A stretch of DNA of 64,000 nucleotides from Leptogorgia sarmentosa. Taxonomy: Eukaryota. Positions within the stretch are counted from its first letter, which is position 1, and the number at the start of each line of letters is the position of its first letter. The stretch spans positions 23,002,001 through 23,066,000 of the forward strand of contig OZ210885.1 of assembly GCA_964658305.1 (NCBI GenBank), given 5' to 3'. Below are positions 1 through 40,784 of the stretch, in pieces. The translations under genes and the position numbers were made by a program. The notes beneath the pieces are model-generated. The model did not search any database. It was not told where the DNA came from and worked only from the letters and a program-made list of their open reading frames with translations.

Positions 1-2429
1 TTTCTAAGTGTTTGCGTTCAAAAGCCGAGAATGTTCTTGTTTTTCGTGAAGCTAAGACATAGTAGCCATATTTTTCGGACTTGCGCAAGACAATATTTGG
101 AAGCACATAACTTTGCGAAAACGCAATAAAACATAAATCCGTCCGAGGAAGTTGAGGGGAAGTTACTTGAGAACAACATACCTCAATTTTATTTTAAAAA
201 AATTAAAAATGAGCCTCAGAACGCACTTTTTATGACACCCTCCGAATGTTTACAAATTTCGGCATTTGCGCATTCTGATTGGCTCAGAGCCTAAATGTCA
301 ACAAATGCGCTGATTGGCTGACAACGAAAATCGCCCTTGTTACACACTGCTTAATTCAGCCATATTGCCACTGCGAGAAAGAAAGGTCAAAGGTCATGGC
401 TTCCAGATATTGGAAGTCTGCCCTGATTGGTTATTGGAAAGCGAAAGGAATTTCACACTCGGATAAGCAGCCGGTGGTTGGGGGAGTGAGAACGTACACA
501 ACTGGCGGCTGCGAGGGAGACTTAAAAAGTTTACTTAAAAAACGGCAAAAACCATTTTTCCGTAATACATTTATATTGAAAATCGAACAAATGTACTTGC
601 CAGAAATCCGTGTTGACATGACGTAATGCGTAGGACAGCAAAATCGTAGGCAAATATCCCGAGTTGCACATCTATGTATAAGATTCAACAGCCGGGAAAT
701 TTGTTGCACATGCGCTAGATTGGCTTGCGTGGATCCCACGAATAATGAACTCGCGCACGAATTTCAAATGTCATGGAAGCATACAATAAGAAATTCCTAT
801 TTGCAAATAAGCGCACGCTTTTCAAAGCAAAGGTTTGCCTGAAGGCGCAACTTTTCATCCAAAATGGCTATTAATTTTATCTTCCCGGTACATATGCAAA
901 CTAAAATATGTGTGGTGGGATAGGCAAAATTTTTTGAAAACCGGCCTGGTATGGGGCCTTACGTACACACAGAATTAAAGGCTAAAATACGACATGACTT
1001 TCAAAATTTCAACAGTTTAAATTGTTCAAATCAATCAGATTTTTTTAAACAATTAAGAAAATATGTCTTGTACAGTAAAATAAATAAACCGACTACACAG
1101 CATACAAACTTTAAAAATGCTGGGCCTTAAAACATTGGCTGTCCGAACTAAACAAATGGCCATTAGGTTAGATATATTGCGAGATTTCATCACTGGGCGC
1201 AATTTTTCTAGACTCTCCTTATGGTAATTCGTAGTGCGTAAGTAGGATATGACTAGTCTGAGGCGAACTACATAACTTCCAGAAGCCACAGTAGTGACAG
1301 TACTCATTTTATACTTGGAATTTTTTGAAAAAAAAATTATTGGAGAGTGTACTTAAGGATTATGTCACTGACATCAAATTAAGATTTCATTGGTTTTTCT
1401 TTTTATTCGAGTAAGGGTTAATAACGGCACCATGGATATGAGATATCTATTGTTGGCACACACTGAACTCTAAAGCCCGTTTTCGAGTCCATTATTACTT
1501 TCATAGCTGCGGGCGAAAAATTTTGAAAAAGAAATCACTTTTTACATTCATTCGGCCTGAAGAAATTCTTTCTGAATTTTCAACTTCTTTATGACTTTTC
1601 GCTGATGAAGCTTAATTTTTCGGTGGCTAAATTTTTCGCTTGTTGTGGCCAAATATGTGAGTGGAAAACAGACATGAGAGACATCTCTTAAAGTTTACTG
1701 GGTTTACCTTACAATTAGCATTAAGGTGGGGAGCAAGTAGCGACATGGGCTTTAGCCAATCAGGTGGCATTATTTTTTCCAGCAGCGTGCATGTTGAGAA
1801 TCGAAGGGTTCCGTGACCACGTTTCACTCTCCTCTGGAAAGGTTTTGTGCCTTTTTTAGTTTTTAGTTGGTTAATTTAGTAGCAGGCAGAAGGGAACGGG
1901 CAGGTGCGGGCAGGTTGAGAGGAGAACAGAGTGACGTGCCTCATGCTCAACTGCTCATTTGTCGTTTTACAATGGATGCCACCAGTAGTTCGAAAGATGG
2001 TGAGTAGTATTAAATAGTTTTTTTATTAAATACACCGAACCTAATGTTAATGAGCCAAGTTCTTTGTTTGAGCTCATTTGCAAGGCCACATCTGTCAGCA
2101 CTGCTTTAATCAACAATAATTTTGCTATTTCCTGAAATTGTCAGCTAGTGTGTTGCTAAAATTAGTAAATTACTGTGTCACTCCGTGTGAGAATTTTAAA
2201 TAATGAAATTGTTGTGCGAGCAAGTTCGAAAATGTATAAATACTGTACTTTTGTAATTAGAAATGAAATCATAACAGGAATATGTGATTAGGGTTGTTAG
2301 CTGTCGCTCGTTGTTTCTGAGGAAAGTCTATGGACGGTAATAAACAACAGGGAGAAGCAGAAAATGACAATGTCGACCACTGGGATAGAACAAAGTTTAT
2401 CTCAACAACACAGCCATTCATAACTGCCA

Positions 2430-3548
2430 ATGCAACTCTCATCTCAGTTTGTAGTTAATCTGGCTTCAACAGCAGCAAATATTAAAATTAATTTTTTATT
2501 GTTGTATTTGTGCTTAACACAGGTTTGTTTATATTTTACTTGTTTAGGGAAGGGCTCAAATGAAGCAATAAAATGCTACATAAAGTGTGTTTCACCGATC
2601 AAAATTAAAGGAACATGCAAATATTTTAACTGTGACTTGCAAACAGCGGACGGTGAAAAACGTGCTGTTTGTTTTTCTCCGGAGAAGAAAAGTGCAATTG
2701 ATAATCTTGCCATCCAAAAAAGCCCGGTGAAAATTACGAAGTACAAATTAAGTACTAAATTTGACCGGGAAGATGTGCAAATATTCAAATTTACCGAAGT
2801 TGTACCTTTGCCAGTAGGTGAATAATTGGACTTTGAATGCCATCCACATGATACTGTAAACAGCATTGCTTCACTGTGTACCATTTCAACTGGACAACTT
2901 GTCAATGTTAAGGGAAAAGTATTTGAAATGTCACAGCCAAAAATAGTGTCAATGTCTGCTGGAACGCTTACCAAACAGGAGTGCTACATTGCTTATCCAT
3001 CAGGTTGTATCAAGGTTTTGCTTTGGGAAGAGCTAGTAGACCAAATGGAAACAGGGAAAACATATTTCCTGGAAGGTTTCCGGATTAGGAGGTATCATGG
3101 GGACATATATTTAAACAATCCAAAGGATGAAGATCAATGCAGTGTCAAAGAAGTTCCTGAATTTGCTGAACTGCAGCTTGATGATCTACATGCTGCTTTG
3201 CCTAAGCAGAAAAAGATGCGGGCAACAATCCTTGGAATTCAAACCATTACAAAAGTCATGTCATAAAGAACGTAATAAAGTGGTAAATGCACTAATAAAG
3301 AATGTAAAATGACACAAAAGTCTTCTCGATGCTGCTCTCAGTGGCATCTGAAATTGTTGATTGCAAATACCACTGACCCTAATGAGAAATACATGGTGAA
3401 TGTATACCATCATGTACTGCAGAAGTTGTTGGAATGCTGTCACATAGAAGTTGATCTCAGTACTTGCAGTGAATCTGATATTACCAGTGAGATATTAGAG
3501 ATTGATAGCGTCTATGTTGAAGTAGATCTAGGAAGTAAAAAGTTGTGA
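2430..3548 (+). pseudogene. Degenerate multi-OB-fold ssDNA-binding protein (RPA70/SSB-like)
   Basis: ORFs 2430-2825 and 2826-3266 are in one frame, separated by a single TAA. 'GQLVNVKGKV...TKQECYIAYPSGCIKVLLWEELVDQMETGKTYFLEGFRIRRYHGDIYL' has the OB-fold strand pattern of RPA/SSB DNA-binding domains. A Cys-containing third segment follows at 3270-3548. Confidence 0.6.
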
Positions 3549-4222
3549 AGAACTATGTAAACTGTTTCCTCAGCACTGATTACCACACATTCTCAGCATT
3601 GTTTAGGAATTTGCTTCCAATATCCCGTGCCTGCTGCTTTATACCTGAGTTGCCTTCTTTGGCTTCAGCACAAGCTTTGCACAGTAACTCACTCATTCCC
3701 TTTTGTGCCTTGGAAATGTACGAATCAATGTACATTGACAGGCATACACATCAAGCACATACTGAATGTCCATATTAGCTCTCCATGCTGAAAGACATGT
3801 TTGATCAAAAGTTGATCAAATGTTATGTCTAGACCCTCTTTTTGGTCATTGAGTTCTTTCTTTATTTGTTTCCATAAATCTTTCAGTATTTTAACATCAC
3901 CTTGAGAAACATTTTCAAGCGGGTGAAGTATCTGTGTTGATTGCAATTTTATGAAACAATGAAACTTTATGTCAACAAGTAAATATGTGTCCAAAAATGC
4001 GGATCTAAATCGTAATTAATCTACTTCGGACCTAATTGGGAACAAATCTAGTGATCAAAATCTAGTGATTTGAAATATTAATAGTATATTGTCAATATAT
4101 GAGCATGATGCATGTACATAGTACTTATCAGTGAAATTTTCACCTTTAGAATTCTTTGTTTTTAAATAGGAAAACTCTTAGAAAGAGCAAAGGAAAATGT
4201 TATTGCTAAAGGTTTTGAATTC

Positions 4223-4995
4223 ATGAAGGGAAAGTCTAGAGGGAAATCGGAAGGCAATAGCAGTAGTGAAGGCAACAACAAAAGAAGAAAAAGAGAAAAA
4301 GAAATTACCGATACGTCCCAAATCCTAAAAAATATTGAAGAGCAAATTGAATACAAACACCTGCGCTTGAAGAGACACAAATCCTTAAACAAGTATTTCA
4401 AATGCGATCAAATATTGGGAGAGATTATAAAGCTGCAGAATGAAAAGAAAATTTTAGAAAAACAGCTGAACAAGTGGGAAAAAAAGATGCCAAGTCGAAA
4501 TGGTACCACAACAGGAAAGACAAAGAGAACAAGACTACAGGAGAAAGCAAACGAAAAGGTGTGACAAAATCATTGGACATTGCACAAATGTTGAGGAAAA
4601 AGAGTGATGTTTCTACAAGCACATCTGCAGGAGTATCTGATTCGAATGAGTCCCTTCCAGACAATATAATTTTCAGTCCAGACGAGCGTGATGATGATGT
4701 GACCATTATTTCACCTTCAAAGTTTCCCTTAGATGATGCAAATCAGCCCCCAGCCTTCGTTGATCACGCTGATAGCGATAAAGCAGGAAGTGAATCCCCA
4801 GATTTGTTTAGCCAGCAAAATAAAGCAGCTTTCTGGGAGGAAGCAAGAAGTCGTTCCCCAGATTTGTTTGGCCAACAAATCAATGAGGATGCTTTGAATA
4901 TTGTTGGAGAGCATATTCAGGTTGAAAGCAAAGAATGTGATGATAATGGAGATAAAGAAGACCAAGTAGCAATGGATGATAAGGATTTTTCTTGA
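4223..4995 (+). pseudogene. Frameshifted uncharacterised gene (basic coiled-coil N-part, acidic tail), probable transposon accessory ORF
   Basis: Overlapping ORFs 4223-4564 and 4474-4995 join across the poly-A run near 4480. There is an internal SPDLF repeat with a 60-nt period. No family recognised. Confidence 0.35.
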
Positions 4996-5007
4996 AACCC
5001 CTTCATT

Positions 5008-6704
5008 GTGAATCCAAGAATGTTGAAGGGGAACAAATTGTTGTGTTTCGAAAGAGAGAAACGCAAGAGCTTGTCATTGCATGACAAGGTTACTGACAAC
5101 ATTTACGTTTCCAAATTTGAAGGATTAAGTCTTACTGAATATATTAATGTTTGTTGTTTCGTTTGTAATGCAAGACATAAGCAGCCATGTAAGGACTGTG
5201 AATTAAAGGTTAAAGTTGCAAAGTATATTGTTGAGCATGGCTTCATTCAATTAAGCGTCGCATTTAAGATGTCGAGTGCAAATGTTAGCTACAGCGCGAA
5301 AAATGCTCGAAGAAAACTTCTTCAGATGCTGTTGGCAGCTATTGGTGTTAGTGAGAAAAATGGGGACATATTGTATTTATCTGGTGGAAAAGAAAAGTCA
5401 CACAAGCTATAGAGTTTTCCAGACATTGCTAAACAAGACTGTAACTCGAGATACCAAACAGCACATAACAAGGAACGAAGTTAACAAGCTGCTGTATCTT
5501 GCTAAAAGCGAATCGGAGAGAGAACGCCTCAAGTATTCTATTGTCAAATCCTCTGGAATCTCCAGTACCAAAGCGAAGAAACGGTACGGTTTTGGTGACA
5601 TGAACAAGCGAATTAAACGGTTTCAGGATGCCGCCCAAATGGCACAAGATATTATGGAGTCAATAGCCAAAATTGCTCATCTCAAAGAAAAAGGATTGCT
5701 AGATGCACTGGGAATAGAACTATCTAGTGAAAGTTCGGAAAGTGATAGTGATGACGAGTTGCTAGATGACCCCAACCTGCCTGACAGAGAAGGTCCGAAA
5801 TCAGAAAATGATGATGCCATTGTCCTATCAACTGACAACCAGAAAGACGAAAGTTGTGAAGAGCTTCAAAACAATACAATTCAGCTATTGACTATTCCCC
5901 AAAATAGTGACTTCAATTGGCTCGATTTTATGAGGGTAGCAAGAGAATATGCCACAGACTTATCTGATTTTTTCTTTAAAGAACAAATTTTAAACTTCTA
6001 TCAAAAGCTACCTTTTCCTGGAATGTCTGATTCAGAGATAAATGCTGTGCTACAATCTCAAAGCATGGCGTCGGACAGGTGTTATTACGTTCGATGGGAA
6101 CAAGAAAATGGAAAAGAAAGCCACGTTCAAGAGGGTTAAAGAACATGTAGAAGAAAAATATCAAAGAAAGATTTCATATGGCACTGTGGTGCAATTATGA
6201 GCAGCCAGAAATAAAAGAAGAAGGTCAGCAGCAAGGTATCGTGGTGTGGCAAAAGTTCTTCAAAAGAGATCAAGAAAAGGATTTAACATTAAGTACAATC
6301 CGGATTTGCACTGGAGCAACGCGTTGTATTCCAGTTTAGATGCTTTACAATCTGAAGATGGAACTAATATTATCAACTTGGGGAGAGAGGATCAAGCGGG
6401 ATTTCGTTTAGACGCTCTAGCTACTCATCGTCTTCACGGCAGTCTCTGTGTCAAAGGCAAAGAAGCACTTGCAACAAGGACTGACTACGTGAATAAATAT
6501 CCATCCACCTTACAAACAACATCTTATAATTTCCCTGCAACAAAAACTACAGGAGAAATTTGCATGGGTGTGGTTAAGACCCCCGCATTATTCAGTAAAA
6601 ACTCTGCCCAACACTTAGTAGATTTAGAAGCTATTTCAAATAACGAGTACTCAAAAGCCACTTTTATTAATCCAACAACTGACAAAAGAAAAGAAATTGA
6701 TTAA
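5008..6704 (+). pseudogene. Zator/TP36-like DDE transposase remnant, 3'-truncated
   Basis: Across frameshifts it reads ISYGTVVQL*AARNKRRRSAARYRGVAKV...YNPDLHWSNALY...NLGREDQAGFRLD. This parallels the Zator/TP36 layout (basic segment, H/N-PD, then S-x-DD-x-A first catalytic Asp). The C-terminal catalytic region is absent. Confidence 0.4.
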
Positions 6705-7511
6705 TTTGATATTCTGTTTCCGCGTTTTACCCTTACCCATACACAGTACCACTTTTACATATTAAGTTTAATAAAAGCACAAACGAGATATAATAACAGT
6801 AATGTCTTTTACATTTACAAGTCAAGCCTTTGTGGTGGGCAGACATGCCTCCCACGTGAGGTGGATACACTTGTAAAAATCGCAGAAAAATTGGCGCAGA
6901 CGGCAGCTAGTAGTTCATCATCAGATTCATTTCCATTGCTGATTTCTTCTAGATCTAAACCTTCCACACAAAGATCTCGCTCATCTCTGAATACGATAAT
7001 TCAATAAGACCTTCATATATTTCTTCAGACAATTTTAGTTGGTCGCAAGTTGGCGAGAGTTGCTTCAATACTAGTTTAACAGCTTCTTTAGGGACGTTGC
7101 TACGAATTTTTTTTCCAAACAGAAATATGTCATTTTCTGATGCCTGGTAGATGAAGTTGATGTTGATCTGGAGCTATATTTACCGTAGTAACACCGAGAC
7201 AAAACGAAACTGAAGTTTGTGTCGGACATTCTTGACCCTCCCCTATACCAATATCAGAAACGGCACTCGGGTTCACTGCAAGAACTGTAAGAGGTGGAAA
7301 CAGAATGCCATTGTCAATGGGCTGACTGGGTGTTGCTGTATTGTCAGTACCATTCGTTGTGGGGATGTGCGAAGCTTGGGTGACGAGTAAAGGTTGAGGT
7401 TTTGGCTGAGGCTAAGTGTAGGCGTACAGTGGTAGTGTTCCAACATTGTCCTTTGTTGACTGGTTTCGTACTGTTACCTGTACAACAGGTTGACCATAAT
7501 TGTCCCACCAG

Positions 7512-10290
7512 TCACGAAGAACTAGTTGGTCGGACGAAGTCATCGACTTTCTTGGTAGTTGTGGAATGTTTGGAAACGTCAGAAAAGCGAAGTGTACCAC
7601 CTTCTGGCATCTCATAGTAAGATGCACGTGCTGTGTAGTAGTGGAATCTGGTATCTGTTAACTGTTTTACGTTCTCCTTCATGGCAGGACAAAAGAGATA
7701 TGCACACTCAAGGACAGTTGGAGTCTGATTCCTGGATCTCATTTTGCTAAAAAGGTGCTCCACAACCAAGGTAAGTAAAGATGCAAGGCGCACGTGAGGC
7801 ATATAATCCGCATTGATATATTTTATAGCTTTTTCAAGAGACATCAAGGAATTCAGCATCATCTCCAAGCTTCTGGCCGTTTTTGACGAAGGCACCCCTT
7901 GTGGACCTCGCAGTACACTTGTCCCTTTTCGAAGGTCGTCGGCGACTTTCTTCTCCCAGGTGTTCAATAAAGATGAAACGCCATGGACAGCTTCTATGGC
8001 TTTGTGGACAGAAAAGATTTCTGGAGGAACTGTGGGTAAATGAATAGCAAAAGTTTTACAAACAATGTCAAGTTGCTCCAAGTATTTGCTTAGCGATGAG
8101 GTAGGAGTCACTAAACACACTCTACCAACGGCGGTATCAGCAACATAAAGCGTGTTTCCCTCCATACATATGGCTGTTGGCTGCTGAAAGGAACACGAGT
8201 ACGAAGATCCGTCAAATGAAGAACTTTGCCCAGACCCTGCTACATCTCGAACTGTTCCCATGTGTAAAATGCGAACTTTGCAGGCACCTCTATCGGTAAA
8301 GAATATTGCCCCATTGTTTGCTGCTGCGATGCCATGGATCCATTCACAGCTTGATGATGCATTGGGAACAATAATGGTCGTTTCATTATTAGACAAATTA
8401 ACACAAATCAGTCCGCCTTTATCACTAGAATCAGCGAAATAGAGTTTCCCATCAGCAAATGAAATTCCATAAACTAGGGCAGAAACATCAAGTTTTATTT
8501 CTGAAAGTACTGTCCCTTTCAAAACTGTGCCATTGTTCATTACTGAAACTTGAAATATTGCATGTCTTTGCAGGTCTGATATGAACAGTAAGTCAGATGC
8601 ACATCCACAAATAGCAAGAGGAGAAACAATCGGAGCACTGATTGGGAGAGAAGTGAATTTGTTGGTAAGGCTAACATTGCAAGCGCGTTGCTTGTCAGAA
8701 ATCCATCGTCTAAGGAGATCTACTAGCTCTTTCTTTGGCATCCTGTTCATTGAAATTCCTCTTTCATTAAGAGCTTGTCGTAAGTCATCCACTCTCATGG
8801 CATTTGGCTTCAAAAAAACTGAAGAACTCAGCGGAATATAGCCAACTCTCTTGTTTCCCGTATCAGCAACGTACAGGACATCATTTACGACTGAAAGACC
8901 TTGTGGGTTCTTTAAATTAGTACCTAATTTGGTGACATCAACGGGGTAGTGCAATCTGCCTTGAAACACGCGGCATTTGGAGTTGTCAGATACGAAGAAC
9001 CTTCCTTCTGTTGTAATGCAAAGACCGGTCGGGTGCTCAATTACTCCTCTGGCGTTACCCTTATACCACCGAAGGGCCTCTGGGATCAAGGTTTGCACAA
9101 CTCATTCCACACTTGCAACCGCTACACGCACAGACTCTTTGCTGATTTTTAATAGATCTGGGGCCGGTTGTTCGTAGCCTGTTTAGCTTAAACGGCGGAT
9201 AAGTCAAATTTAAATTACACTCCCGTTCATCTTGTGAATAACTGAGCATGAATTTTAAACCCTAAACATGTAGTTGTGTACACAAGTGTTCTTTTCAGAT
9301 TGAAAATTTTTATTTTGATTGTTCAATGAACACATAGACGCGTTTGATATTTTGGACTTATCCACCGTTTAAGCTAAACGGGCTATGAACAACCGGCCCC
9401 AGGGACTGAAATTCGGTCACGATTTCTAACTGCAGACAATGTGACGTAACTTCTCATGTTACTTCGACAAGTTGAATCGTTCTCCATCTTTGTACAAGAA
9501 CCAGTTGGCAAAGCTACCCTTCAAGCATTTCCCAACATGCGTTGCTTCGGGTATTGGGAGAAGAAACTGCAACTGCGACGATAACGTGGAATCTTTCTTC
9601 ATTTGCGCAAGTTTAAGCATTGCTTGCTTGTTGCTCTCTTCACAATCAGCTGACCACATAGACACCAACAGTCTAACACACTGTATTCCCGCCGAAATGC
9701 AATGACTGCAGGCGCGGAGAGGCGCCTCAGAAAATTTATGACCATCTCATTCACAATTTTCGCACACTTCTCCACTTGAAATGCAATCTAAAAAAAAACA
9801 AGCACCTGTAAAAACAATCATTTTGACCACTGTGCTTCTACTATACCTAAGTCTATGGATGAGTCACAAGTTTGAGTTGATGAGTCTCAAATGTCACAAT
9901 ACGAGTATAATATAGCTGTAAGTCTTGTAATTTGTTTAGCAGGTCCACATCAACTTTTAGCTGCCATTTTGTAACCTGCATATCAAATAAATTATGTAAT
10001 ACTATGTATGTATGTACAAAAAAAAGCTACCGCAATTATAACGGCCCACCTTTGCAATGGCTAGCACACTCATCCCCTGATGACGTTATGACATTCATTT
10101 GCGTTTTTGTCAACGCGAGGAGGCAGTTGAGACAAATCTGCAGCTGTTTTGCTTCAGAACCCTCGAGTTGGCAGCATCTCCATCGGCCTTCTTACTGTTG
10201 TAATCGTTACCAACTGGTAATGACAACTTATTGTCAAGCGTTGTGATAACAATAGCATTAGCCTCTACGACAAAGGAATTACAGCTGCTA
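7512..10290 (-). pseudogene. Spliced P-element/THAP9-like DDE transposase with Cys-rich module and NHL-repeat beta-propeller + SAP insertion (decayed)
   Basis: Minus-strand reconstruction: exon ~10290-10050 (FVVEANAIVITTLDNKLSLPVGNDY...QLQICLNC...CASHCK), then a GT..AG intron 10049-9788 that keeps frame (K-D-CISSGEVCENC). Next come WSADCEESN, PEATHVGK and VRNRDRISVP|MITE|DLLKISKE. ORF 9098-7512 has NHL repeats (PQGLSVVNDVLYVADTGN, PTAICMEGNTLYVADT), a SAP-like MRVDDLRQALNERGISMNRMPKKELVDLL and the P-type glutamate box TLVVEHLFSKMRSRNQTPT. Confidence 0.6.
9161..9399. mobile_element. PIF/Harbinger-type MITE
   Basis: ~45-bp imperfect TIRs GGGCCGGTTGTTCGTAGCCTGTTTAGCTTAAACGG... / ...CCGTTTAAGCTAAACGGGCTATGAACAACCGGCCC, flanked by CTG (9158-9160) and CAG (9400-9402), a CWG target. 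Removing it restores the host reading frame (S-V-P-D-L-L). Confidence 0.85.
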
Positions 10291-10311
10291 CGTTTTGGTT
10301 ATCGTATATAT

Positions 10312-11002
10312 ATGTTATTTACCAGCTGGGAGGTCCGTACTGGAAAATATTTTCCAGTACAGACCGACCTAAATGGTAAATAACTTATTTCTTTTTTTCC
10401 CCTCAATGTTATGATAAAATTCGTCAAAAATTCCAGTGTTGCGAACTAGATTTTGAGATCAGTTGTGTTTGTTTACTTTGCTACTCTATCGCATGTATGG
10501 CTGCTAAACAGCCAAGACGAAGTGAGAAAAAACCCTTCAATATTGACGCATTTGCTTCAATATTGACGCTTTCCACTCAACATTACTACGAAAAAGGTAA
10601 ACTTATTAAAATTATTTATTTTCCCGTTCGTTTCACGATAGAAACATGGTTAAAATACGCTTTAGACACAGAAATATTTCACCGAGAATGTTTTGTTTTG
10701 TTCATACTGATAAGACTCTGTTGATACTTATGAGTTTTTGTCGCTGTAAATACCCCCTGAAATATCCCTTAGCATAATAAAATGAACTTTCATGTGTTCT
10801 TTATCGCCTAAATTCGTTTGGAATATTTTAATAAGCAGCCATTCAATTTTAAAAAACAAAAACATTGACTATATTTGTATTAAATCTACGAGAATACATG
10901 CGAGCGGAGCGGTTCGTACCGTAGGATACGGACCGCTCGGCAACCAATCAGAAAGCTCTATTTAGGTTACGGACCGGGAGTTACGGACCGGAAAAAAATA
11001 AT
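10312..11002. repeat. Probable non-autonomous interspersed repeat
   Basis: It starts after a TA run with TTATTTACCAGCTGGGAGGTCCGTA and ends with repeated TACGGACC motifs (reverse complement of GGTCCGTA) then AAAATAA. It truncates the P-like gene upstream. Family not assigned. Confidence 0.35.
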
Positions 11003-11084
11003 TTAATATAGTGAACAAATTTGAAATCGCTTTTAAATAAGTTCTGTCATGTTATCCACTCACTTGAGTTGTCAAATGTCAGTA

Positions 11085-11305
11085 TAGAGTTAGGATTGTT
11101 GTACTGTGGTTGTCATGCTAGGATTGTTGTGCTGAGGTTGTCATGCTAGAATTGTTGTGCTAGGATTGTACTGAGGTTGTTGTGCTGAGGTTGTCATGCT
11201 AAGATTGTCGTGCTAAGATTGTTGTGCAGAGGTTGTCGTGCTAAGATTGTTGTGCTAAGATTGTTGTGCAGAGGTTGTCTTGCTAAGATTGTTGTGCTGA
11301 GTATT
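11085..11305 (+). repeat. Minisatellite, ~14-bp units (GATTGTTGTGCTRAG / GTTGTCATGCTARG)
   Basis: Directly visible tandem variants. Confidence 0.9.
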
Positions 11306-11800
11306 GTACTTACAGTAAGTTGAATGCTGTTTATGGTTATTCATACATTACGAATATTCAATTTGGTTTCTTTTCACATCAAATAGTAGAATGTGGAATA
11401 GTTGTGGACATACAGTTGCACAAATTTATTTATTAAAATATTAGGTAAACTATCTAAGCACTATATGTATCTATATACATACACAGTTAATAAATATCAT
11501 AAAAGCTGAAGTATTTACTATTTACACTTATTTAATAATAATATAACTTTATTTAGAGAAGGTTTAAAGTATTTACAAAGAAATATGCCAGTTTAGCAAA
11601 TGCTAGTTCCACTGGGCTTTCTATAACACATAAAAGGCTAGTCTTTTTAATTCAAATTAGCCATATGGTATTGAATTCATCTGACAGGAATAATTGCTTT
11701 GAACTACTGATTGAACAATTTGAATTACAAGCCTCACTGGGACTTTTCTTTTGTAAATAAAACAAGTTTTGAGACATATCATATCGTATTCTAATAAAAC

Positions 11801-12030
11801 CTATTTGCATTTATCACAAATAAAAGTAGAGTTTTTGTTTAATTTCCTTGGAATTCGTTGGCATCCCCTGTGAAACCAATCCTGGCAAATGTCAAACTGG
11901 GCCATGAAAACACCCTTTGTGAATGGTTGTCTGCAGTGACAGAAAACTTCAAAGTTCTCCACTGTCGTAAAAATTTGGTGCTTAAGATGGGATGCTTGTG
12001 GGAAAAGGGTTAGTTCTCCTTCCCTGAAAC
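11801..12030 (-). pseudogene. PHD-finger C-terminal piece of the disrupted Ulp1-PHD gene
   Basis: FREGELTLFP...VFCHCRQP...MAQFDICQDWFHRGC...FICDKC is a C4HC3 PHD pattern with the third Cys replaced by Phe. It is fused to Pao pol sequence at ~12030. Confidence 0.75.
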
Positions 12031-15000
12031 GATTTGGTTTGCAAACAGACAAATATGGCAATGTATGCTTTATGGTAAGTTGGCTTTCGTTTCGACCCAG
12101 CTTTGATAGTCCAGCATAGTCAACTGATACCATGTCGTTTGCAAATGAGGGATTGACCCTTTCAACTGGAAGCTGACCCATTAGTTGTGTCGACACCTTC
12201 GGAGACACCCGTCGACAAATAACGCATTCACGTGTGCACTTTCTAACAATTCTTCTGGTGCTGATGATGTGATATCGCTGTTGAAGTGATCCCAGTAGCA
12301 GTTTGGGTCCTGCATGGCACAATCGTTTGTGTTCGACGATCAAAGTAGTTAGTCGATGTTTTCCGGGAAGGATTAACGGATGACATGAATCAAAGTCCAT
12401 TGGTGATTGTGAGAGGCGTCCACCTACTCTGAGTAGACCATCTGAATCAAGAAATGGATTTAGAGGTTTTAAGTAATGCTTGTTGGGAAGTTGTTTTCCA
12501 TTCCTTAGCAGGGAGATGATTCCAGAAAACAGTTTAGATTGCACATTCTTCAAACACCATATTTCTGCCTTGTGCAACTCATCAACAGTGAGAGGCGTTG
12601 AAGTGAATAGGTGTGTCTTGGTAACTACACGACGGACGAACGCAATGACCCTTATCAAGCGAGCGAAGCTAGAGTATCGATTGATATCTATAACCGTTTC
12701 TGATGGAGTGTTTACTGTGTTCACAGCCATAGAGACTTCTTTATTGTTTCTTAATTTTTGATCTTCCTCTCGAATGCCTGTTCTCAAAATAGCTTCAAGA
12801 GAAGGGGGGATGACCAATTTGGATTCCCAGGTTGATGGCTCCGATTTTAGCCAAAGTGGTCCAGACCACCATAAGTGATGATTGATAATATCCTTAGGAA
12901 GAACGCCACGAGAACCGGCATCCGCAGGGTTTTCGGTTCTTTTGACATGTTTCCATCTTTCCGGTGGCAAGATTTCCTGTATTTCAGACACCCTGTTCGC
13001 TTTGAAAGTTTTTAGTCGCTGACTGGTTCCATATATCCAATACAACACAATGGTACTGTCCGTAAAAGCATAGATATCTTTGGTGGAAATTTCTAGGACA
13101 GCCTTCACATGTTTTGAGACGAGCTAGCAGATGGGCGCCACACAACTTGAGGCATGGGAGTGACGCTTTCTTTATAGGGGCGACTTTAGTTTTGGCTTCC
13201 ACGAGAGCTACACGTACGCCGCCGGCCGTGTCAACACTTCGTAAATAGATTACTGCAGAATATGCCTTTTCACTTGCATCTGAAAAACCAATCAACTGTC
13301 GGTTAACAATTTCGCACTCAACGGGAGCATAACAACGTGGAATTCTCAATGAAGAAAGTTCAGTGAGCTGCTTCCTCCATTCTTTCCAATCACGTTCAAT
13401 ATCTGCAGGAAGTGGACTGTCCCAACCAATTCCTTGTTCCCATAAGCGTTGAAAGATTATCTTTACTACGACGGTGGCACAAGACAACAATCCAAGAGGG
13501 TCAAAGATTTTGGCTGAGTCTGACAATATTGAACGTTTGGTGAGTTTGATTCCTTCAAAGGGAAAGTCGGCGATAGAGAGCCTGAATTGGTCTCGTCGTG
13601 AATTGTACTCGATTCCAAGAGTTTTGGTAAAGTTGCCAGAGTCTGGTATACTCGTTGTCGCCTTGACACTTCGGATTTCTTCAGGGATGGCGTTCAGAAC
13701 TTCAGGTGAATTTGAGTCCCATTTGTGCAATTTAAAGGCACCTTTCTGGAAGAGTTGTTGTAGTTGATGGTACAGGCGAATTGCTTCTTCTTGCGTCTTA
13801 ACTGAGGGGAGCCCATTGTCAACATAGAATGCTTCTTTTACTGCTTTGGCAGCTTGGGGAAGTGCTGTTTGATTCTCTTCAGCTAAGTGCAGAATAGACT
13901 TAGTGGCTAAAAATGGGGCACAGCTTATTCCAAAGGTGACTCGATTCATTCGATATTCTTGTATCTCTTCATCTGGATTATTCCTCCACAGGAACCGATG
14001 GAAATCACGATCATTTGGATCTAGGCCAACAGCTCAATACATCTTTGAGATGTCGGTAATAAGAACGTAGGGATGCTTTCTAAATCGAATAAGCACGTCA
14101 TTCAACGGGGAATGAACAGTCGGTCCCACAAACAGACGGTCGTTTAATGAGATACCACTTGAGGATTTCATCGATCCATCAAACACCACTCTGATGGGAG
14201 TTGTTGTTGAATCTTTGTGGACTGCGTGGTGAGGCAGATAAAACGTTTCGGAAGGAGGTTTGGTAAGCTCGTTGTTGGGGATCTTTTCCGCGTGTCCGGA
14301 CGATATGTACTCATTCACTACGGCAGCATAATCATCGTAGACCTTCAGGTTGTGAAGACGTCGTTCAATGGACAGGAATCGCCTTAATGCTTGAGTTCGT
14401 GATTCGCCAAGAGGTGTAACATCCGATTTAAATGGAAGTCTGACGATGAACCGGCCATCAGCATCACTCTTGTGATTGAGGTTGAAATCATCAACTACAA
14501 GTTTTTCAACTGGTGACATTGTTTGCCTTGTTTCCGGAGCTTCTTCTAGCATCCAAAACCTTTGGAGGATTTCCTCACAGGATGGTTGCGACGTTGAAAC
14601 AAACATTGTAGCAGCTTCTCTGGGTATACTTTGGTTGTTAACGGGATCTCGAGTTGTGCTACCAAAGAGAACCCACCCAAAGATAGTGTCTTGGGCAGCA
14701 GGAGTTCCCTTAGGTTCCAAGATTAAACCAGGTTTCAAGATCTCATGGTAAACATCTACCCCTAACAAAATGTCAATTGGCTTTGAAATGTTAACGTTTG
14801 GATCTGCGAAGGATAATGATTCTAGATGTGGCCAGTTTCCCTTGGAGATGGACTGCAGTGGAAGACACTTTGTTAACGAGGGTAGAACAATGGCATTTAG
14901 TTCCTTGACTGAGGTTGCATCATGGGCTGATTTTACCTTGACTTCGACTACTTTGTTGTGCGTGTTCACACATTGTGTTTCTCCGATTCCATTGATGCAA

Positions 15001-17854: not shown

Positions 17855-18458
17855 TAATATGTGCTTTAGCTGTGCTGTTATGATGTAATTTGGTCAAAAC
17901 AAACTCGCATTTGAACGATGACTCATCGCTAAAATAACTTATAAAAAATGATCCTGTATCAACAGTTATAGCTGAAAAGATATTCAAATAGAATGTCCAC
18001 ATTTCTGATTGATATCCCTTTTTATTTTGCACAATACGCAACGAAAAGCAACACTTAGATATTAAATTGCGAGTGACTGTCAGATAGCTCTTGACGATTC
18101 ACTGAAAGATCTAATATGCTAAATTGAGTCAACAGACGTGCTTGGCAGATGTCATTTTGTGCGGACATATTATTGATACATACATAAAACATACCCTTAC
18201 CTTTATTCAATGCAATGTGCAGATGGCTACAGATGACGCTAGTGTTCCAAATTTGTAGAAATTGTAGCAGAGAGATCAGTCAGATCACACACGTCTTTCC
18301 AAGAAAGCTGTCGCAAATGTTTTGAACTTTTGACCGAGTCAGCGCTTATATATAAGCGCCCTGGGCGCAATTAATGGTGGGTATGTTTACCGCAGACACC
18401 ACAGCGGGCGCATTTGATCAGTGCAGTCGCTGCGCATGTCGAGTGTCTGAGGCATACA

Positions 18459-18961
18459 ATGTCAATACAACATGAGTATGACAATTTCAGCATAACAATG
18501 TCGATACAACATGAGTATGACAATTTCGGCACAACAATGTCGATACAACATGAGTGACAATTTCAGGACAACTATGTCGATACAACACGAGTATGACAAT
18601 CTCAGCACAACTATGTCGATACAACATGAGTATGACAATCTCAGCACAACTATGTCAATACAACATTAGTATGACAATCTCAGCACAACTATGTCAATAC
18701 AACATGAGCATGACAATCTCAGCACAACAATATCAATACAACATGAGTATGACAATCTCAGCACAACTATGTCGATACCACATGAGTATGACAATCTCAG
18801 CACAACTATGTCAATACAACATGAGTATGACAATTTCAGCACAACAATGTCAATACAACATGAGTATGACAATCTCAGCACAACAATGTTGATACAACAT
18901 GAGTATGACAATCTCAGCACAACAATGTTGATACAACATGAGTATGACAATCTCAGCACAA
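18459..18961 (+). repeat. Minisatellite, ~13 copies of a 39-bp unit (TCAATACAACATGAGTATGACAATCTCAGCACAACWATG)
   Basis: Directly visible head-to-tail repeats with no spacers. They explain the repetitive ORFs at 18462-19019. Confidence 0.97.
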
Positions 18962-19168
18962 ATGCTTTGAATAAAATCTGACAATATTGCTTATTAATAC
19001 ATGACATTTCATTTCTCATTAAAGTTCTTACAGAGTTATTTTTTGTTTATATTTTCCCAGGAGGTTTGGCAACCTCTGTGGAACCAATCTTTGTATCTTT
19101 CACACTCAATCATAAACATGTCTTTTGGTGCATGATTATCTACAGTGTCAGCACTTTCCCAGTGTCAT

Positions 19169-31497: not shown

Positions 31498-33057
31498 GAT
31501 ACCGACGTTGACATGTTTACAAATTAGAAATGAACAATCATATCAAATTTGCTACATATATGGGACAGGTGCAGTTCCAATGTTGTGCAAGACTTCCGTA
31601 GTGAGTGGTACCTTCTCATATCTTATTTTACCCCACCCAGACGTGCCTAGTTATTTAGCTACCCCACCATTTTCTCTTCAGCCCCCACCCCTGCCATAAA
31701 TAATGACTGGTCCCTAATGCAAATGAGCTCAATTATTGTTTTTTTCGTCACTGCCTAAAACTTTTCCCATTAAGCGAGGTAACTTTTCTCCATATGAAAA
31801 GAGACAATATTATTTGGCAAGTCGAAGTGCTTCCTCGTCAACCGGGATAACTTTTGCTCATATGTGACAATTGAGGATCGCAGATAATTGGGTCATAGAT
31901 ATCAGAATATATTTACATTTGTACAATTTGTACAATATAATTGGATGCATGGAATTAACGTATATGTTATTTCATAAATGCAATGAGTTTGACTAATTGT
32001 CGAGGGTGGGAGGTCGAGGGTCGAGGGTAACATGTCGAGGGTAGAAAAAAATGTCGAGGGTTGAAAAAATATTAAACCAGTTAAAAGTTAAAACAATTCT
32101 ACATTATGACGTGTAGAATGCAATATTATTATTCAGTTTTCGTAAACTAGTGTTCTGATTGGCCGATTTGTACCACGTGACTTCATTTTACATAACAACA
32201 ATGCACGGCTGGGCATTATAGCCATGCGTAAACTTTTTATTGCACTGCAAGATGGCTTCCGAGTGCGAGAAGTTTTTAGTTTTTTCCACCGACGATATAG
32301 AGGCAATAATTTCTGTTTTAATTATAAATTGTAATTATAAATGTTGTACTATAAAATTTATTTTTTGTAATAAATATGAATTGTGTGGCAGTGGCGTTTC
32401 TTTTTGCATATTTCTCTATGCATGTATATAACAATGTGAAATACTTGTTCTTTTGTGGTTTACTCAAATTGAATATTAAAACGTTTAAAGCACTCTTTTT
32501 GCGCCTCGTGCAGTGTTACATTTCTTGTTTCTTGTTCGCGAATTTGTGCTTGAAATGCCGATAATGCACTCAAAGAGTGCTGTAATCCTTAATTAAATAC
32601 GATCTGATCAGAAATTGCGCGTTTTGCCTGTCAATGAAATTAAAAGTGTGGTGTACTTTAGCTCATATATAGCAAGCACAATGCGGTGGATGCGCAAAAT
32701 TCACACGGGTGGATGCGTCGCGGGTTTTACTTTTAGTTATGGCGGAGCTGCATGTTCTTTGGAACAAGTTAACTTTTGAAATGTAGCAGGCGTAATCCCG
32801 TAACATTCGCCTCGACTGCAGGAATTTCCTGACTGGAAGTACCAGCTATTGTAAGTCACACCAAAGAGGATTTGTCTCAGTGTCGTAGTGTAATGTCCGG
32901 TGATAAACTAATATGTAAAAACTAGATTTGCATTTGTAGTGATAATTAGTTCCTGTAGATGTAAATTGTAATTTAACACTGATATAATGACAATGCATTA
33001 GTTATCTCATAAGTATGCTGTGTTTATTATTTTTTTGTGAACCAATCTTCATATATA

Positions 33058-33821
33058 CAGGGTGTATCAAAAAAAAGTTTACTGATGAAAAACATTCTCT
33101 AAACTAACGAGGGCTCAAAATTTCCAAAAACTTTCGGTTAGCATGGGTAGTTTAGCACCCTCTGGTATATCTAGCACTAAGTTTATTTTAAAAACAAACT
33201 TTTGTAGAATGGGAAATGTGGTTACTGAAAGGCCCATTAAAAACGACTTGCACGGAAAAAATAAGTTTTTTTCACACAATTTGATTTAATCGGATGAAAA
33301 TATGGAGTATGATATACAAGCTATTCAAGTTTTGAGAAAATTTGGTGCACGCCGAGACGAACATGCGATGTCCAAAAACTGGATTTTGCGTTCTTTCCTG
33401 CGTGATTACCGATTAATTTATACATAATTGGATATTTGCATTAATTACTAATGCAAATTGCAAGCTAATTCCCAAAGGTCCGTAATTACGCGAAGAATTT
33501 GCGGAAAATCCAGTTTTCGGACATCGCACGTTCGTCTCGGCGTGCACCAAATTTCTCAAAACTTGAATAGCTTGTATATTATACTCCATATTTTCATCTG
33601 ATTAAATCAAATTGTGTGAAGAAAACTTATTTTTTTGGCGCAAGCCGTTTTTAATGAACACATTTCCCATTCTAAAAAAGTTTGTTTTTAAAATAAATTT
33701 AGTGCTAGATATACCAGAGGGTGTTAAACTACCCATGGTAACCGAAAGTTTTTGGAAATTTTGAGCGCTCGTTAGTTTAGAGAATTTTTTTCATCAGTAA
33801 ACTTTTTTTTTATACACCCTG
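33058..33821. mobile_element. Tc1/mariner-type foldback MITE nested in the MULE
   Basis: TA|CAGGGTGTAT...ATACACCCTG|TA, with inverted arms of about 350 bp (33058-~33410 vs ~33480-33821) and a short spacer. Confidence 0.9.
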
Positions 33822-34162
33822 TATATATATAGGCTCCTGCTAATTGCACGTGTTTCGGAACAAAATGTTTACAATTGCTTTTTTGCCCATTAAATTGTTA
33901 AATTCAAGAATTTCAAACATGAAAGTCCAAAAAACGGCATGAAACGGAATTACATAAGACTGTAAAATGACACTGTTAAAAGTAAGGGACAGATAAAAAA
34001 GTGTGAACATTCCTTATTCTATCTCTTCTTGACCAAGTACTGTCAGGATACGAATCGCTGTCTGTCGCTTATCCAAGCTTTGAATTAATTACGCTTTACG
34101 CACACTCTTGTTGTGAGCTTTCACTCTATATCAGTCGGATAAAAACTCGAATCATTAAAAGA

Positions 34163-37800: not shown

Positions 37801-38751
37801 AGGTGGGTTACAGTCCCTTCTGCGCACATGCGCTGAGTTTGTTATGAGTAGGCTACTCATGTTAAAATCATAACAAGTTCCCAGTCCTACCGAGTAATAA
37901 CAACACGCACGGCCGTGGGCTGCAGGGAGCGATGACTACTTCAGGTGCGTCAAGTTCCGCAAAAAAACCTTCAAATACTAAGCGTCGTTGCATATCTGAC
38001 GCTAGAAAGGTATATGACAAGAAAAGAGACGCATCTTTTGAGAGGTGGAGAGCGTTCAAACAAGAACGCATCCTGAAGACTGACCAGAATGTGGCAGATT
38101 TTCTGCTCGATAATACACACGGAGAAACACGTTATGGTGAGTGTGTTGATAATATAACTAAACCTTTGACCTTTTATGATGATTTTACGCTTTTGGCCTT
38201 TGTCTTCACAAGAACAATCAACCCCTATTTGTAATTCATATATTTTGCTAAAAAGCTTTAACGAATATTGAATAAGTTTTGGGGTATTCTTACAAATACA
38301 AATTGAGATGTAATCGTAATGACTTGGGGGCGAATCGACTGGATTCCACACCAAATACATATAAAATATGTAAAGGAAAGTACATTAAAGCGTAAAATCA
38401 TCATAAAAGGTCAAAGGTTTAGTTATTTATCAACACACTCACCATAACGTGTTTCTCTGGTCAGTCTTCAGGCTGCGTTCTTGTTTGAACGCTCTCCACC
38501 TCTCGAAAGCTTCGAATAAAAATATCTTAGATGCGTCTCTTTTCTTGCGCTTAGTATTTGAAGGGTTTTTCTGCGGAACTTGATGTGCCTGGATCAGCCA
38601 TCGCTCCTTGCAGCCCACGACAGTAAAAACATTAGGTGGCTGCGCGTGTTGTTATTACTCTGTAGGACTGGGAACTTGTTATGATTGTAACATGAGTAGC
38701 CTACTCATAACAAACTCAGCGCACATGCGCAGAAGGGACTGTAACCCACCT
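37801..38751. mobile_element. Kolobok-type foldback non-autonomous element
   Basis: Ends AGGTGGGTTACAGTCCCTTCTGCGCA... / ...TGCGCAGAAGGGACTGTAACCCACCT followed by TTAA (left flank degenerate, TATT). Inverted arms extend ~360-400 bp (to ~38200 and from ~38390). Confidence 0.8.
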
Positions 38752-39261
38752 TTAAAACACCGTCTATGTATTCGCTCCTTGGTCCTTAGATCAACTTCAT
38801 TACTGTACCTTAAGATACTGTCAATCCTATTTCTTTAACGCTGCCTTTACAGTAGCTCAAAATTGATAAATTGTCCAATTCAATGGCTTCAAATGCTTCA
38901 AACTTTACTGTATTTCAACTTTTCGTCAAGTAGCGATCAGAAGGAGCAAGAATTTCGGGCTCAATGCTGCAAAACGTTGGCCTGAGCCATCATTGGTGAA
39001 CGCTTGTGAACGCTGTGATTGATAAAAAACATTCAGCCAATGGGAATGCAGAATTGTTTTTGAATAAGCCAATTGAATAGCCTGTATTCGAACTCCTCAC
39101 AGATCGCGCAAAACTCAGGCGTTAATTTTCGAAGGCCGAGCAACTGAATGAAATTGACTGGACTGTTAACTTTCAATGCAATTCACTACCTGAAGTTTAA
39201 CAACTGGAGTGCTATTGTGAATTGTGATTTCACAATTTTACCAATACAAGGGGAATAAGTA

Positions 39262-39346
39262 GCCTCATTAGCTCAGTGGTTGGAGCACTGGTCTTGTAAG
39301 ATGTCTAGTAAACCAGGGGTCCAGAGTTCAAATCTCTGATGGGGCT
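39262..39346 (+). tRNA. tRNA-Thr(TGT)-like gene with a 12-nt insertion 3' of position 37 (intron or local duplication)
   Basis: GCCTCAT/ATGGGGC acceptor stem, A box TAGCTCAGTGG, anticodon arm CTGGT-CTTGTA[AGATGTCTAGTA]A-ACCAG, T arm CAGAG-TTCAAAT-CTCTG. Confidence 0.7.
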
Positions 39347-39462
39347 GTATTTGCTTTAAAAACTTGGAAGAACGTCAAAGATTTGTATGCTGTTCAGTGG
39401 TTAAAAATAATAAAGCTTTTGAAAGCCTTCGAAAAAACATGCTTTGAAGATTTTAGCAGGTT

Positions 39463-39540
39463 GCCTCATTATTAACTCAGTGGTTGGATCACTGGTCTTG
39501 TAAACTAGGCATCCAGAATTCAAATCTCTGATGGGGGGCT
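39463..39540 (+). pseudogene. tRNA-Thr(TGT) pseudogene
   Basis: Same body as 39262, with insertions and mismatches in the D and T arms. Confidence 0.75.
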
Positions 39541-39766
39541 CAAAAGTATCGTTACCAAAAATTGGCCTGTTGGTCTTGAGAAAGGGAAATAATTTTGAAA
39601 GTGGTACTCAGAGTTCCGCTCACTTGTAATATATTCGTTATTATAATTCAATGAAAGAGTAAATGGTAACATTTTACAAAGAAAGGAAACAATTTTATAA
39701 TCTTTCCTATATTTACCATTTTGAAACCTGACAATAGTGAAGAATTCTATCGCAAACGCTTGTGCT

Positions 39767-39840
39767 GCCTCATTAGCTCAGCGGTTAGAGCACTGGTTTC
39801 ATAAACCAGGAGTCCAGAGTTCAAATCCCTGACTGAGGCT
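39767..39840 (+). pseudogene. tRNA-Thr-derived copy with CAT anticodon (probable pseudogene)
   Basis: Thr body; loop TTCATAA; one extra base in the 3' acceptor strand and a T-stem mismatch; followed by a T-rich run. Confidence 0.7.
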
Positions 39841-39975
39841 TTATTTTCTTCGGAAACGTGGAAGAACGTGGAAGATAAACGCCCCGAATTTCATTCATAT
39901 GCAGTTCAGGGTGTTAAAAACAATATTGGAAGAGTAGTATGTTGGAAAAAAACATGTGGAGGTTTTTAGCAGGTC

Positions 39976-40021
39976 GCCTCATTAGCTCAGGGGTTAGAGC
40001 ACCAGTTTTGCAAACCGGGGG
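39976..40021 (+). pseudogene. Truncated tRNA-Thr pseudogene
   Basis: GCCTCATTAGCTCAGGGGTTAGAGCAC..., 5' half only. Confidence 0.7.
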
Positions 40022-40180
40022 AACAAATATTCATCCAAACGAACTATTTTGATTTTATGACAAGTTAGTGTGAGCGGAATTCAATTTTTTGGAAAAGCTT
40101 ATTTTATGAAAAATTCCTGATAATGTGAGAAATTAATATGATGGTTATATTGTATTCTGAGTTTCAATGGAAAACATGTT

Positions 40181-40226
40181 GCCTCATTAGGTCAAGGGTT
40201 AGAGCACTTGTTTCGTAAACCAGGGT
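40181..40226 (+). pseudogene. Truncated tRNA-Thr(CGT) pseudogene
   Basis: GCCTCATTAGGTCAAGGGTTAGAGCACTTGTTTCGTAAACCAGGG, T arm missing. Confidence 0.7.
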
Positions 40227-40784
40227 AAGGTTGATACCAACTTGAAAGTTTTTTCAGGATGTTGCATTAATGTTATCGAATGTTTCAACATGGAATTAGC
40301 TTTGATCTTCTGATATCAATTGCCAACCAAAATTCAACATTGTCTCAACATTACTTCTGGGACGTTGCATGAACGTTATAGATTTGATGTTTTTTTAATG
40401 TGGAATTAAGCGGTGATTTTCTTTTTCTAGCAACTAAAATTCAGTTTCAACATTGTTTTTAGACGTTGGATCAACATTATAGAATTGACGGTGTTTCAAC
40501 GTGAAATCTGCATTGATTCTTCCACGTTACTTAATATTTGATGTTAACCGGCAATGTGAACGAGTGGTCTGAAGTGCTTCTGTTGACATTAATTTTGTAA
40601 ACAAATGATATTTTGCATAAAATACCAATGTCAAATATATGTTGGACATTTAGCTGCAAGACCAGAAACGAAAAAGCCTGGAATGGACAAGGCTCCACTC
40701 TGGGAAATTACCAACTTGCAAACATTGTCATTGCATAAAAAATTGACCACTAAGCATATGAACAGATATAGGATAAGAAAATAC

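What the first reader, a model, noticed from the sequence alone, without database searches (positions are those of the whole stretch)
7512..10290. P-element-like transposase with a built-in NHL beta-propeller and SAP domain
Seen: the 528-aa ORF looks like a plain NHL-repeat protein. Removing the MITE (9161-9399) and a frame-preserving intron (10049-9788) links it, across a few frameshifts and stops, to upstream motifs in this order: VEANAIVITTLDNKLSLPVGNDY, a Cys-rich module, WSADCEESN, PEATHVGK, RNRDRISV, [NHL repeats with embedded SAP], TLVVEHLFSKMRSRNQTPT. Known: P/THAP9 transposases show the same series: A.ealvF....wK.Pv.Y strands, second Asp (vcD..sN), DxxH, a KM.V-type motif, then QD.lEnfFs.iR...dnPt holding the catalytic Glu, with a GTP-binding insertion between DxxH and Glu. 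Inference: this lineage carries a beta-propeller + SAP DNA-binding module in that insertion region, plus an extra Zn module inside the RNase H fold. I know of no described DDE transposase with this architecture. It loosely recalls the RAG1/RAG2-propeller pairing, but in one polypeptide. This copy is dead, and its first catalytic Asp lies beyond the truncation at ~10300.
Basis: partly seen in the sequence, partly recalled or inferred. Interest (0 to 1): 0.88.

Follow-up and report, generated by a model that had tools for sequence, protein, structure and literature searches.

The report
P-like transposase with built-in propeller
This is a broken copy of a jumping gene found in corals, mussels and priapulid worms, whose DNA-cutting enzyme is predicted to fold like the fruit-fly P element transposase but carries a propeller-shaped domain inside the part that in P binds GTP, so it likely handles its DNA ends in a way not yet described.

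Summary
Confirmed and extended. The window holds a 5'-truncated, decayed copy of a P-related DDE transposase gene (about 10298 to 6815, minus strand). Contigs without the MITE exist and the intron site is shared with relatives. Intact 1.0-1.5 kaa relatives occur in cnidarians, mussels and a priapulid. In 35 near-full-length ones the D, D, (D/E)xxH and E are almost invariant, always with a Cys module and an NHL propeller with SAP. A homologue's N-terminal half folds best like Drosophila P transposase (Foldseek E 4.7e-6; Z 11.3, next 6.1). The match runs into P's GTP-binding domain, so the propeller splits that domain instead of replacing it. Related loci end in 5'-GAGGG termini; one whole element has a 7-bp duplication. 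Differences from P: no THAP found, terminal base C instead of G, and no conserved D444/N447-like residues, so GTP use is likely lost or changed (inferred). Ten paper searches found no description; Repbase could not be searched. This scan reported the same architecture once before, on another genome (e1-7583089).

The parts
10150..10298 (-). First surviving piece: RNase H strands 2-3 (EA..; LPVG.DY). The gene is cut off upstream, so the first catalytic Asp is absent
   Evidence: 65% identity to homologue P0241; profile positions 198-242, E 5e-10
10050..10155 (-). Start of the Cys-rich module, after a frameshift near 10150
9788..10049 (-). 262-nt GT-AG intron, phase 1, inside the Cys module
   Evidence: homologue continuity across it; same site in 4 donor-side and 1 acceptor-side homologue fragments; splicing not seen in RNA
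9465..9787 (-). Rest of the Cys module, strand 4 with the second catalytic Asp (codon 9647-9645), strand 5 with ExxH (9548-9537); in-frame stop at 9749-9747
   Evidence: 62% identity to P0002; conserved columns
9402..9472 (-). R-N-R-D-R motif, by spacing the counterpart of P transposase K400/V401; follows a frameshift and short deletion near 9470
   Evidence: the equivalence is inferred from spacing
9160..9401 (.). High-copy MITE (about 239 bp plus a 3-bp duplication) inserted in the gene
   Evidence: inverted arms; empty-site joint in runs X1, X4, X8 and depth about 40,000
8106..9101 (-). NHL-type beta-propeller with a SAP-like helical pair looped out at about 8807-8697; an in-frame stop lies just before it (9104-9102)
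   Evidence: Pfam; homologue model matches NHL propellers at Z 28-30
7575..8105 (-). Second half of the helical insertion domain (GPxG motif) and the helix with the catalytic Glu (codon 7760-7758)
   Evidence: Glu in 34 of 34 aligned homologues; ESM Atlas neighbours carry PF21788/PF21789 (homologue P0124)
6815..7588 (-).
10305..11300 (.). High-copy repeats at which the gene is cut off
   Evidence: depth 80,000-290,000 in run X1; minisatellite 11068-11320

Best explanation
The window holds a dead, 5'-truncated copy of a cut-and-paste DNA transposon family of marine invertebrates whose transposase is predicted to have a P-element-type DDE core, with an NHL propeller and SAP motif inserted in the middle of the domain that binds GTP in P. 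Shown: conserved D-D-(D/E)xxH-E, the Cys module, propeller and SAP in one ORF, multi-copy families, GAGGG termini with short subterminal repeats, one 7-bp target duplication. Predicted: the N-terminal half has the P transposase fold up to the equivalent of P residue 428. Inferred mechanism: an N-terminal C2HC-type finger and helical region (in place of THAP) bind the subterminal repeats; the three acids hold Mg and cut and join DNA with a 7-base stagger; the helical insertion domain is kept (81 + 110 residues around the propeller, against 190 in P) but likely no longer uses GTP as P does, since the Asp/Asn of P's GTP site are not conserved and the terminal base is C, not the G that pairs with GTP in P. 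The propeller-SAP unit most likely adds a nucleic-acid-binding surface for transposon ends or target DNA; a host-protein docking role is the alternative.
For: Conservation in 35 near-full-length homologues: D141 34/34, D304 34/35, D/E337 35/35 (31 D, 4 E), H340 35/35, D394 35/35, E865 34/34, nine Cys at 33-35 (P0003 numbering). Fold: model pLDDT 95.8; Foldseek top hits 6PE2/6P5A E 4.7e-6 and 8.4e-6, the only two under 0.001; VIA-align Z 11.3, rmsd 3.5, 217 aligned, chain 199-428, the only Z over 8 among 48,161 chains, next 6.1. Pfam PF21787 above its cut-off in P0322 (26.7 against 24.6). ESM Atlas: N half next to PF21787 clusters (0.89, a lead only), post-propeller part next to PF21788/21789/22824 clusters (0.90). 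P's GBD is 339-528 with D339 as DxxH (PMC8230255, passages); GTP residues and the terminal G from PMC7776569, section 6. Mobility: clusters of 233, 141, 126, 68 and 64 members; L002/L003 are 99.4% alike with open ORFs and part at the terminus; 4 of 5 loci with 700+ bases after the stop carry the terminus; L024 has both ends, and removing 7 bases restores the interrupted repeat unit without a gap. Core and propeller trees agree (Mantel r 0.84; 17 of 21 supported core splits recur).
Against: The post-propeller half was not folded and searched alone, and no Pfam P-family model matched it. The 7-bp duplication rests on one old site with 5 of 7 bases alike; 5 bases match perfectly. L017 has 7.4 kb after the stop and no terminus. 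One of seven termini (L027) scored no better than chance in the leave-one-out test. Only 1 of 67 Pfam protein scans passed the PF21787 cut-off and five more gave sub-cut-off hits. Loss of the GTP site is read from a sequence alignment without a structural register. SAP passes Pfam's cut-off in 4 of the 31 long proteins. No activity or binding was measured. The window copy itself has no terminus left.
Confidence: 0.88

Rival explanations
1. An ordinary P-superfamily element that still uses GTP, with the propeller-SAP unit as a passenger loop.
For: The insertion domain keeps P's length (191 against 190 residues). The D-R-M motif lies 58 residues after DxxH (61 in P), and a Ser/Thr follows it ten residues on in 25 of 35 homologues, which could be P's K400/V401/S409 site. 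The 7-bp duplication is close to P's 8.
Against: No conserved Asp or Asn in the first helix after the propeller, where D444/N447 should lie, and Thr near D528. Terminal C. The propeller is kept in all 58 H+E proteins and follows the core tree, which a passenger would not.
Confidence: 0.25
2. A domesticated host gene (THAP9-like) that decayed in this lineage.
For: In run X1 the locus has the depth of one diploid locus, and a copy about 6% different lies in a second organism. It has an intron shared with relatives.
Against: Relatives form many multi-copy clusters with fragments, near-identical copies with different flanks, termini and a target duplication. The window copy has several stops and frameshifts and an inserted MITE.
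Confidence: 0.06
3. The GAGGG termini belong to another transposon family (such as Sola or Mutator-type miniature elements) lying near these genes by chance, so the ends of the element are unknown.
For: Such GAG termini are recalled for Sola2/3 and MuDR (from memory, not tested). One locus (L017) lacks the terminus.
Against: The terminus points outward 40-600 bases after the stop in three sequence families with no partner end in between, and points inward upstream of the ORF in L007, L022, L023, L024, L027 and L029. Six of seven termini score above every site in the 64-kb window.
Confidence: 0.1
4. Chance neighbourhood of an NHL gene and transposase debris in this window.
For: The window copy is in pieces amid many repeats.
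Against: Single open ORFs of 1.0-1.5 kaa hold all parts in the same order.
Confidence: 0.01

Closest known systems
Drosophila P element transposase (PDB 6P5A/6PE2), vertebrate THAP9 and zebrafish Pdre (P superfamily; Pfam PF21787/21788/21789)
   Same: Predicted RNase H core and first half of the insertion domain (Z 11.3); D-D-DxxH-E order, with D2-to-DxxH spacing 33 against 36; helical insertion domain of the same length; acidic C-terminal region; short TIRs with subterminal repeats; 7-bp against 8-bp duplication.
   Different: About 330 residues of NHL propeller plus SAP inside the insertion domain (H-to-E spacing 430-644 against 189); Cys module between D1 and D2 (spacing 147-190 against 73); no THAP found; N-terminal C2HC-like finger, PB1-like domain in some; termini GAGGG..CCCTC with terminal C; D444/N447/D528 equivalents not conserved.
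RAG1-RAG2 and ProtoRAG/RAGL transposons
   Same: A DDE transposase working with a six-bladed beta-propeller; RAG1 is the next Foldseek hit.
   Different: RAG2 is a separate kelch-type protein from a convergent gene (PMC7204232, passages); here the propeller is NHL-type and in the same chain. RAG1 match is weak (E 0.03; Z 4.6-5.2). An analogy only.
NHL domains of SOQ1/NHLRC2, TRIM71, Brat and teneurins
   Same: Closest solved relatives of the propeller by sequence (SOQ1 E 3e-27) and fold (Z 28-30); PDB titles list RNA complexes for TRIM71.
   Different: Those are host proteins; here the propeller is interrupted by SAP and sits inside a transposase. The donor lineage was not tested by a tree.
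Zisupton/KDZ transposases (carry SAP; recalled, not tested)
   Same: SAP motif in a DDE transposase.
   Different: Different catalytic signature (recalled); no Pfam hit to such families.

Membership tests
P superfamily | RNase H fold with DDE triad of P type | tested here: met
   N-half model best matches 6P5A/6PE2; triad near-invariant. The Glu helix was not superposed.
P superfamily | (C/D)xxH right after strand 5 (PMC8230255) | tested here: met
   D/ExxH at the end of strand 5 in the model; H in 35 of 35
P superfamily | Helical insertion domain between strand 5 and helix 4 | tested here: met
   Structural match to P residue 428; remainder 110 residues, helical, Atlas neighbours PF21788/21789; split by the propeller
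P superfamily | GTP-binding residues K385, K400, V401, S409, F443, D444, N447, D528 (PMC7776569) | tested here: inconclusive
   K400/S409-like positions plausible; no conserved D/N at D444/N447/D528-like positions; register from sequence spacing only
P superfamily | N-terminal THAP domain | tested here: not met
   No THAP hit, which include models with long N-termini (P0111, P0113, P0123, P0171, P0316, P0322); these show a C2HC-like motif by eye. Most other records lack their first exons.
P superfamily | 7-8-bp target site duplication (8 bp in PMC7776569; 7-8 recalled) | tested here: inconclusive
   One site, L024: 7-base overlap by alignment to the empty repeat unit, 5 of 7 identical
P superfamily | Short TIRs ending in a 3' guanosine (G-1 in PMC7776569; 5'-CA termini recalled) | tested here: not met
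   TIR-like ends are present but read 5'-GAGG.. / ..CCTC-3' in 11 ends of 10 loci
P superfamily | GTP-dependent cleavage with 17-nt overhangs | not testable with these tools
   needs biochemistry
Transib/RAG | RAG1-type core with separate kelch RAG2 | tested here: not met
   RAG1 and Transib score far below P; the propeller is NHL and in the same chain

The most novel reading that the evidence does not exclude
A separate superfamily-level lineage, sister to P, spread over at least three animal phyla: a THAP-less, GTP-independent transposase in which a built-in NHL propeller-SAP unit takes over the positioning of the DNA ends that GTP performs in P. It would be the first single-chain DDE transposase with its own propeller, a convergent parallel to RAG1-RAG2.
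Probability: 0.3. Interest if true: 0.85.

Novelty: new variant of a known kind. Interest (0 to 1): 0.68.

Why it matters
P transposase is described as the only transposase that needs GTP (PMC7776569, section 6). A widespread relative that keeps the insertion domain, splits it with a propeller, lacks the key GTP residues and ends in C offers a natural test of what GTP does and how insertion domains evolve. Intact, near-identical copies exist (L002/L003), so excision assays are possible. It would also name a transposon family now annotated only as 'uncharacterized' or NHL proteins in corals and mussels, and may identify the transposase behind GAGGG-ended repeats in those genomes.

Tried and rejected
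No whole genome is held. No relatives in viral contigs (0 of 50 candidate stretches); terminus patterns in viral and prokaryotic collections gave one unrelated match each. Fold searches with the full-length model listed only propellers: uninformative for the core. Sequence searches of PDB found only NHL and SAP relatives. No RNA holder listed. Laying four runs on the L024 left end gave one short piece. Complex prediction of the two halves of the catalytic domain was not available. The convergent plus-strand neighbour (4996-6704) was tested as a RAG2-like partner: no tblastn hit in the 31 related loci, rejected. P0321 and P0325 first looked propeller-less but hold propeller pieces and are internally deleted models. 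Ghanim 2019 (PMC6948148) is not held. Ten paper searches gave no description of this architecture; three that joined NHL or propeller terms with transposase terms returned 0 papers and one search returned four whose listings are on other subjects.

Full report
Observation. The motifs lie on the minus strand in the order given. The long ORF (529 codons, 9101-7515) has NHL repeats and a weak SAP/HeH hit. A profile built from 35 intact homologues matches six window segments in colinear order from 10298 to 7415 and nothing for the region of the first Asp. The intron 10049-9788 is GT-AG and homologue P0111 is continuous across it; four homologue fragments stop at the same donor position and P0002, the closest homologue (58-62%), starts at the same acceptor position. 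The MITE is real: 3 of 4 runs hold a contig that skips 242 bases at 9159/9402, and its depth is hundreds of times that of the gene. It is dead: at least three in-frame stops and four frameshifts, a MITE, and truncation at high-copy repeats near 10305. In run X1 it has single-locus depth. The host is not given; a cnidarian is likely from the named relatives, which is inference.

The family. Searches found many relatives: 12 with P0003, 142 representatives at E under 1e-30, 31 with the N-terminal half alone as query. Named sources are four Mytilus species, Priapulus caudatus, Porites lobata, Paramuricea clavata, Oculina patagonica and Exaiptasia diaphana, all 'uncharacterized' or 'hypothetical'. 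I chose 35 near-full-length ones for alignment. In P0003 numbering D141 is in 34 of 34 aligned rows, D304 in 34 of 35, D/E337 in 35, H340 in 35, D394 in 35, E865 in 34 of 34, and nine Cys in 33-35. Of the proteins held at that point, 58 show both the His and the Glu; their spacing is 430-644, plus 982 in P0002, whose propeller part is triplicated. In P it is 189. These came from queries that held the propeller, but the propeller-free query added 22 proteins; the 10 with both residues have spacing 476-531, and two that seemed to lack the propeller are deleted gene models. Trees of core and propeller agree (Mantel r 0.84, p 0.001; 17 of 21 and 14 of 16 supported splits shared), which fits one old acquisition; no outgroup was used.

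Fold. The full-length model of P0003 (pLDDT 72, pTM 0.69) gave only propeller matches (NHL, Z up to 30.5). The N-terminal 331 residues of the L002 protein folded at pLDDT 95.8. Its best matches are the P transposase structures: Foldseek E 4.7e-6, RAG1 next at 0.03; VIA-align Z 11.3 over 217 residues, next 6.1, among 48,161 chains (same result). The match spans P residues 199-428. P's insertion domain is 339-528 (PMC8230255, passages), so its first 90 residues are present before the propeller. After the propeller 110 helical residues lead to the Glu; 81 + 110 = 191, against 190 in P. The ESM Atlas places this part next to clusters with PF21788, PF21789 and PF22824 (0.90, each family on a third or fewer of members), and P0322 passes Pfam's cut-off for PF21787. 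Pfam itself did not match the post-propeller part, and it was not folded alone. The Cys module lies between strands 3 and 4; zinc binding is inferred.

Element ends. Of 31 metagenome loci, 7 reach the C-terminus and 5 hold 700 or more bases beyond it; 4 of the 5 carry a CCCCC..CCCTC end 40-600 bases after the stop. L002 and L003 are 99.4% alike and part right after it. Inward-pointing GAGG ends lie upstream of the ORF or its remnants in L007, L022, L023, L024, L027 and L029, followed by short repeats about 30 bases apart. In a leave-one-out score 6 of 7 ends beat every site in the window; L027 did not. L024 has both ends (1070-8156) inside a tandem repeat; removing 7 bases gives an ungapped match to the empty unit, so the duplication is 7 bases, 5 of them identical. 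This is one site. The window copy has no terminus left.

Mechanism. Shown: architecture, conserved triad, multi-copy state, termini. Predicted: P-type core. Inferred: cut-and-paste with a 7-base stagger. In P, GTP is held by D528, K385, K400, V401, S409, F443, D444 and N447 and bonds to the terminal G (PMC7776569, section 6, read whole). Here a D-R-M motif sits where K400/V401 should, but the first helix after the propeller has no conserved Asp or Asn, the column near D528 is Thr, and the terminal base is C. I therefore think GTP use is more likely lost or changed than kept (about 3 to 1), on a register that was not checked by structure. No THAP was found in the models with long N-termini; they show a C2HC-like finger by eye and one has a PB1 hit. 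The propeller-SAP unit most likely binds nucleic acid: SAP is a DNA-binding motif (established knowledge) and NHL domains such as TRIM71's are solved with RNA (titles). This is untested.

Comparison and novelty. It works like a P transposase, but fails two features of typical P elements (THAP, terminal G) and leaves the GTP site open, so I file it as a P-related lineage, not as a plain member. The RAG parallel is an analogy: RAG2 is a separate kelch protein (PMC7204232, passages). Papers seen: PMC7776569 (passages and section 6), PMC8230255, PMC10983969, PMC7204232, PMC5751038 and PMC10027918 (passages); others as search listings only; no supplements read. Ten searches found no description. 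Most subscription papers, Repbase and Dfam were out of reach, so the elements may be catalogued without the architecture being noted.

Verdict. A real, widespread, apparently undescribed variant of the P-type transposase; this copy is a relic. Interest 0.68.

Noticed in passing
window 4996-6704 (+): A second decayed, multi-ORF gene lies tail to tail with the transposase and is cut off near 6700. No convincing Pfam hit; about 80-93% similar pieces in another run suggest a repeat family, and in run X1 parts of it have half depth. Possibly another DNA transposon.
   Followed up: partly
window 11801-14033 (-) and beyond: ORFs that look like a BEL/Pao-type LTR retrotransposon pol (reverse transcriptase, RNase H, integrase motifs, by eye).
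   Followed up: no
window 11068-11320 and 18440-19022: Two related minisatellite arrays (14 and 39-nt periods) in inverted orientation 7.4 kb apart, enclosing the retrotransposon ORFs.
   Followed up: no
window 40785-41208 and 46546-46982: A pair of 96-99% identical direct repeats 5.76 kb apart around GC-richer DNA, likely the LTRs of a young retroelement.
   Followed up: no
window 39256-40228: Five degenerate tRNA-like repeats about 200-300 bases apart.
   Followed up: no
window 33051-33828 and 37801-38751: Two long foldback elements with 93-100% complementary arms.
   Followed up: no
protein P0002: The closest homologue has the SAP-propeller segment three times in tandem: an internal duplication or an assembly artefact.
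   Followed up: no
L022:248 and L023:927: Two 5' termini of one subfamily are both preceded by the same five bases, which may show a target preference or a shared old insertion.
   Followed up: no
proteins P0157, P0171, P0316: Extra domains in some members: C-terminal PHD finger, N-terminal PB1-like domain, ALS2CR8-like segment.
   Followed up: no
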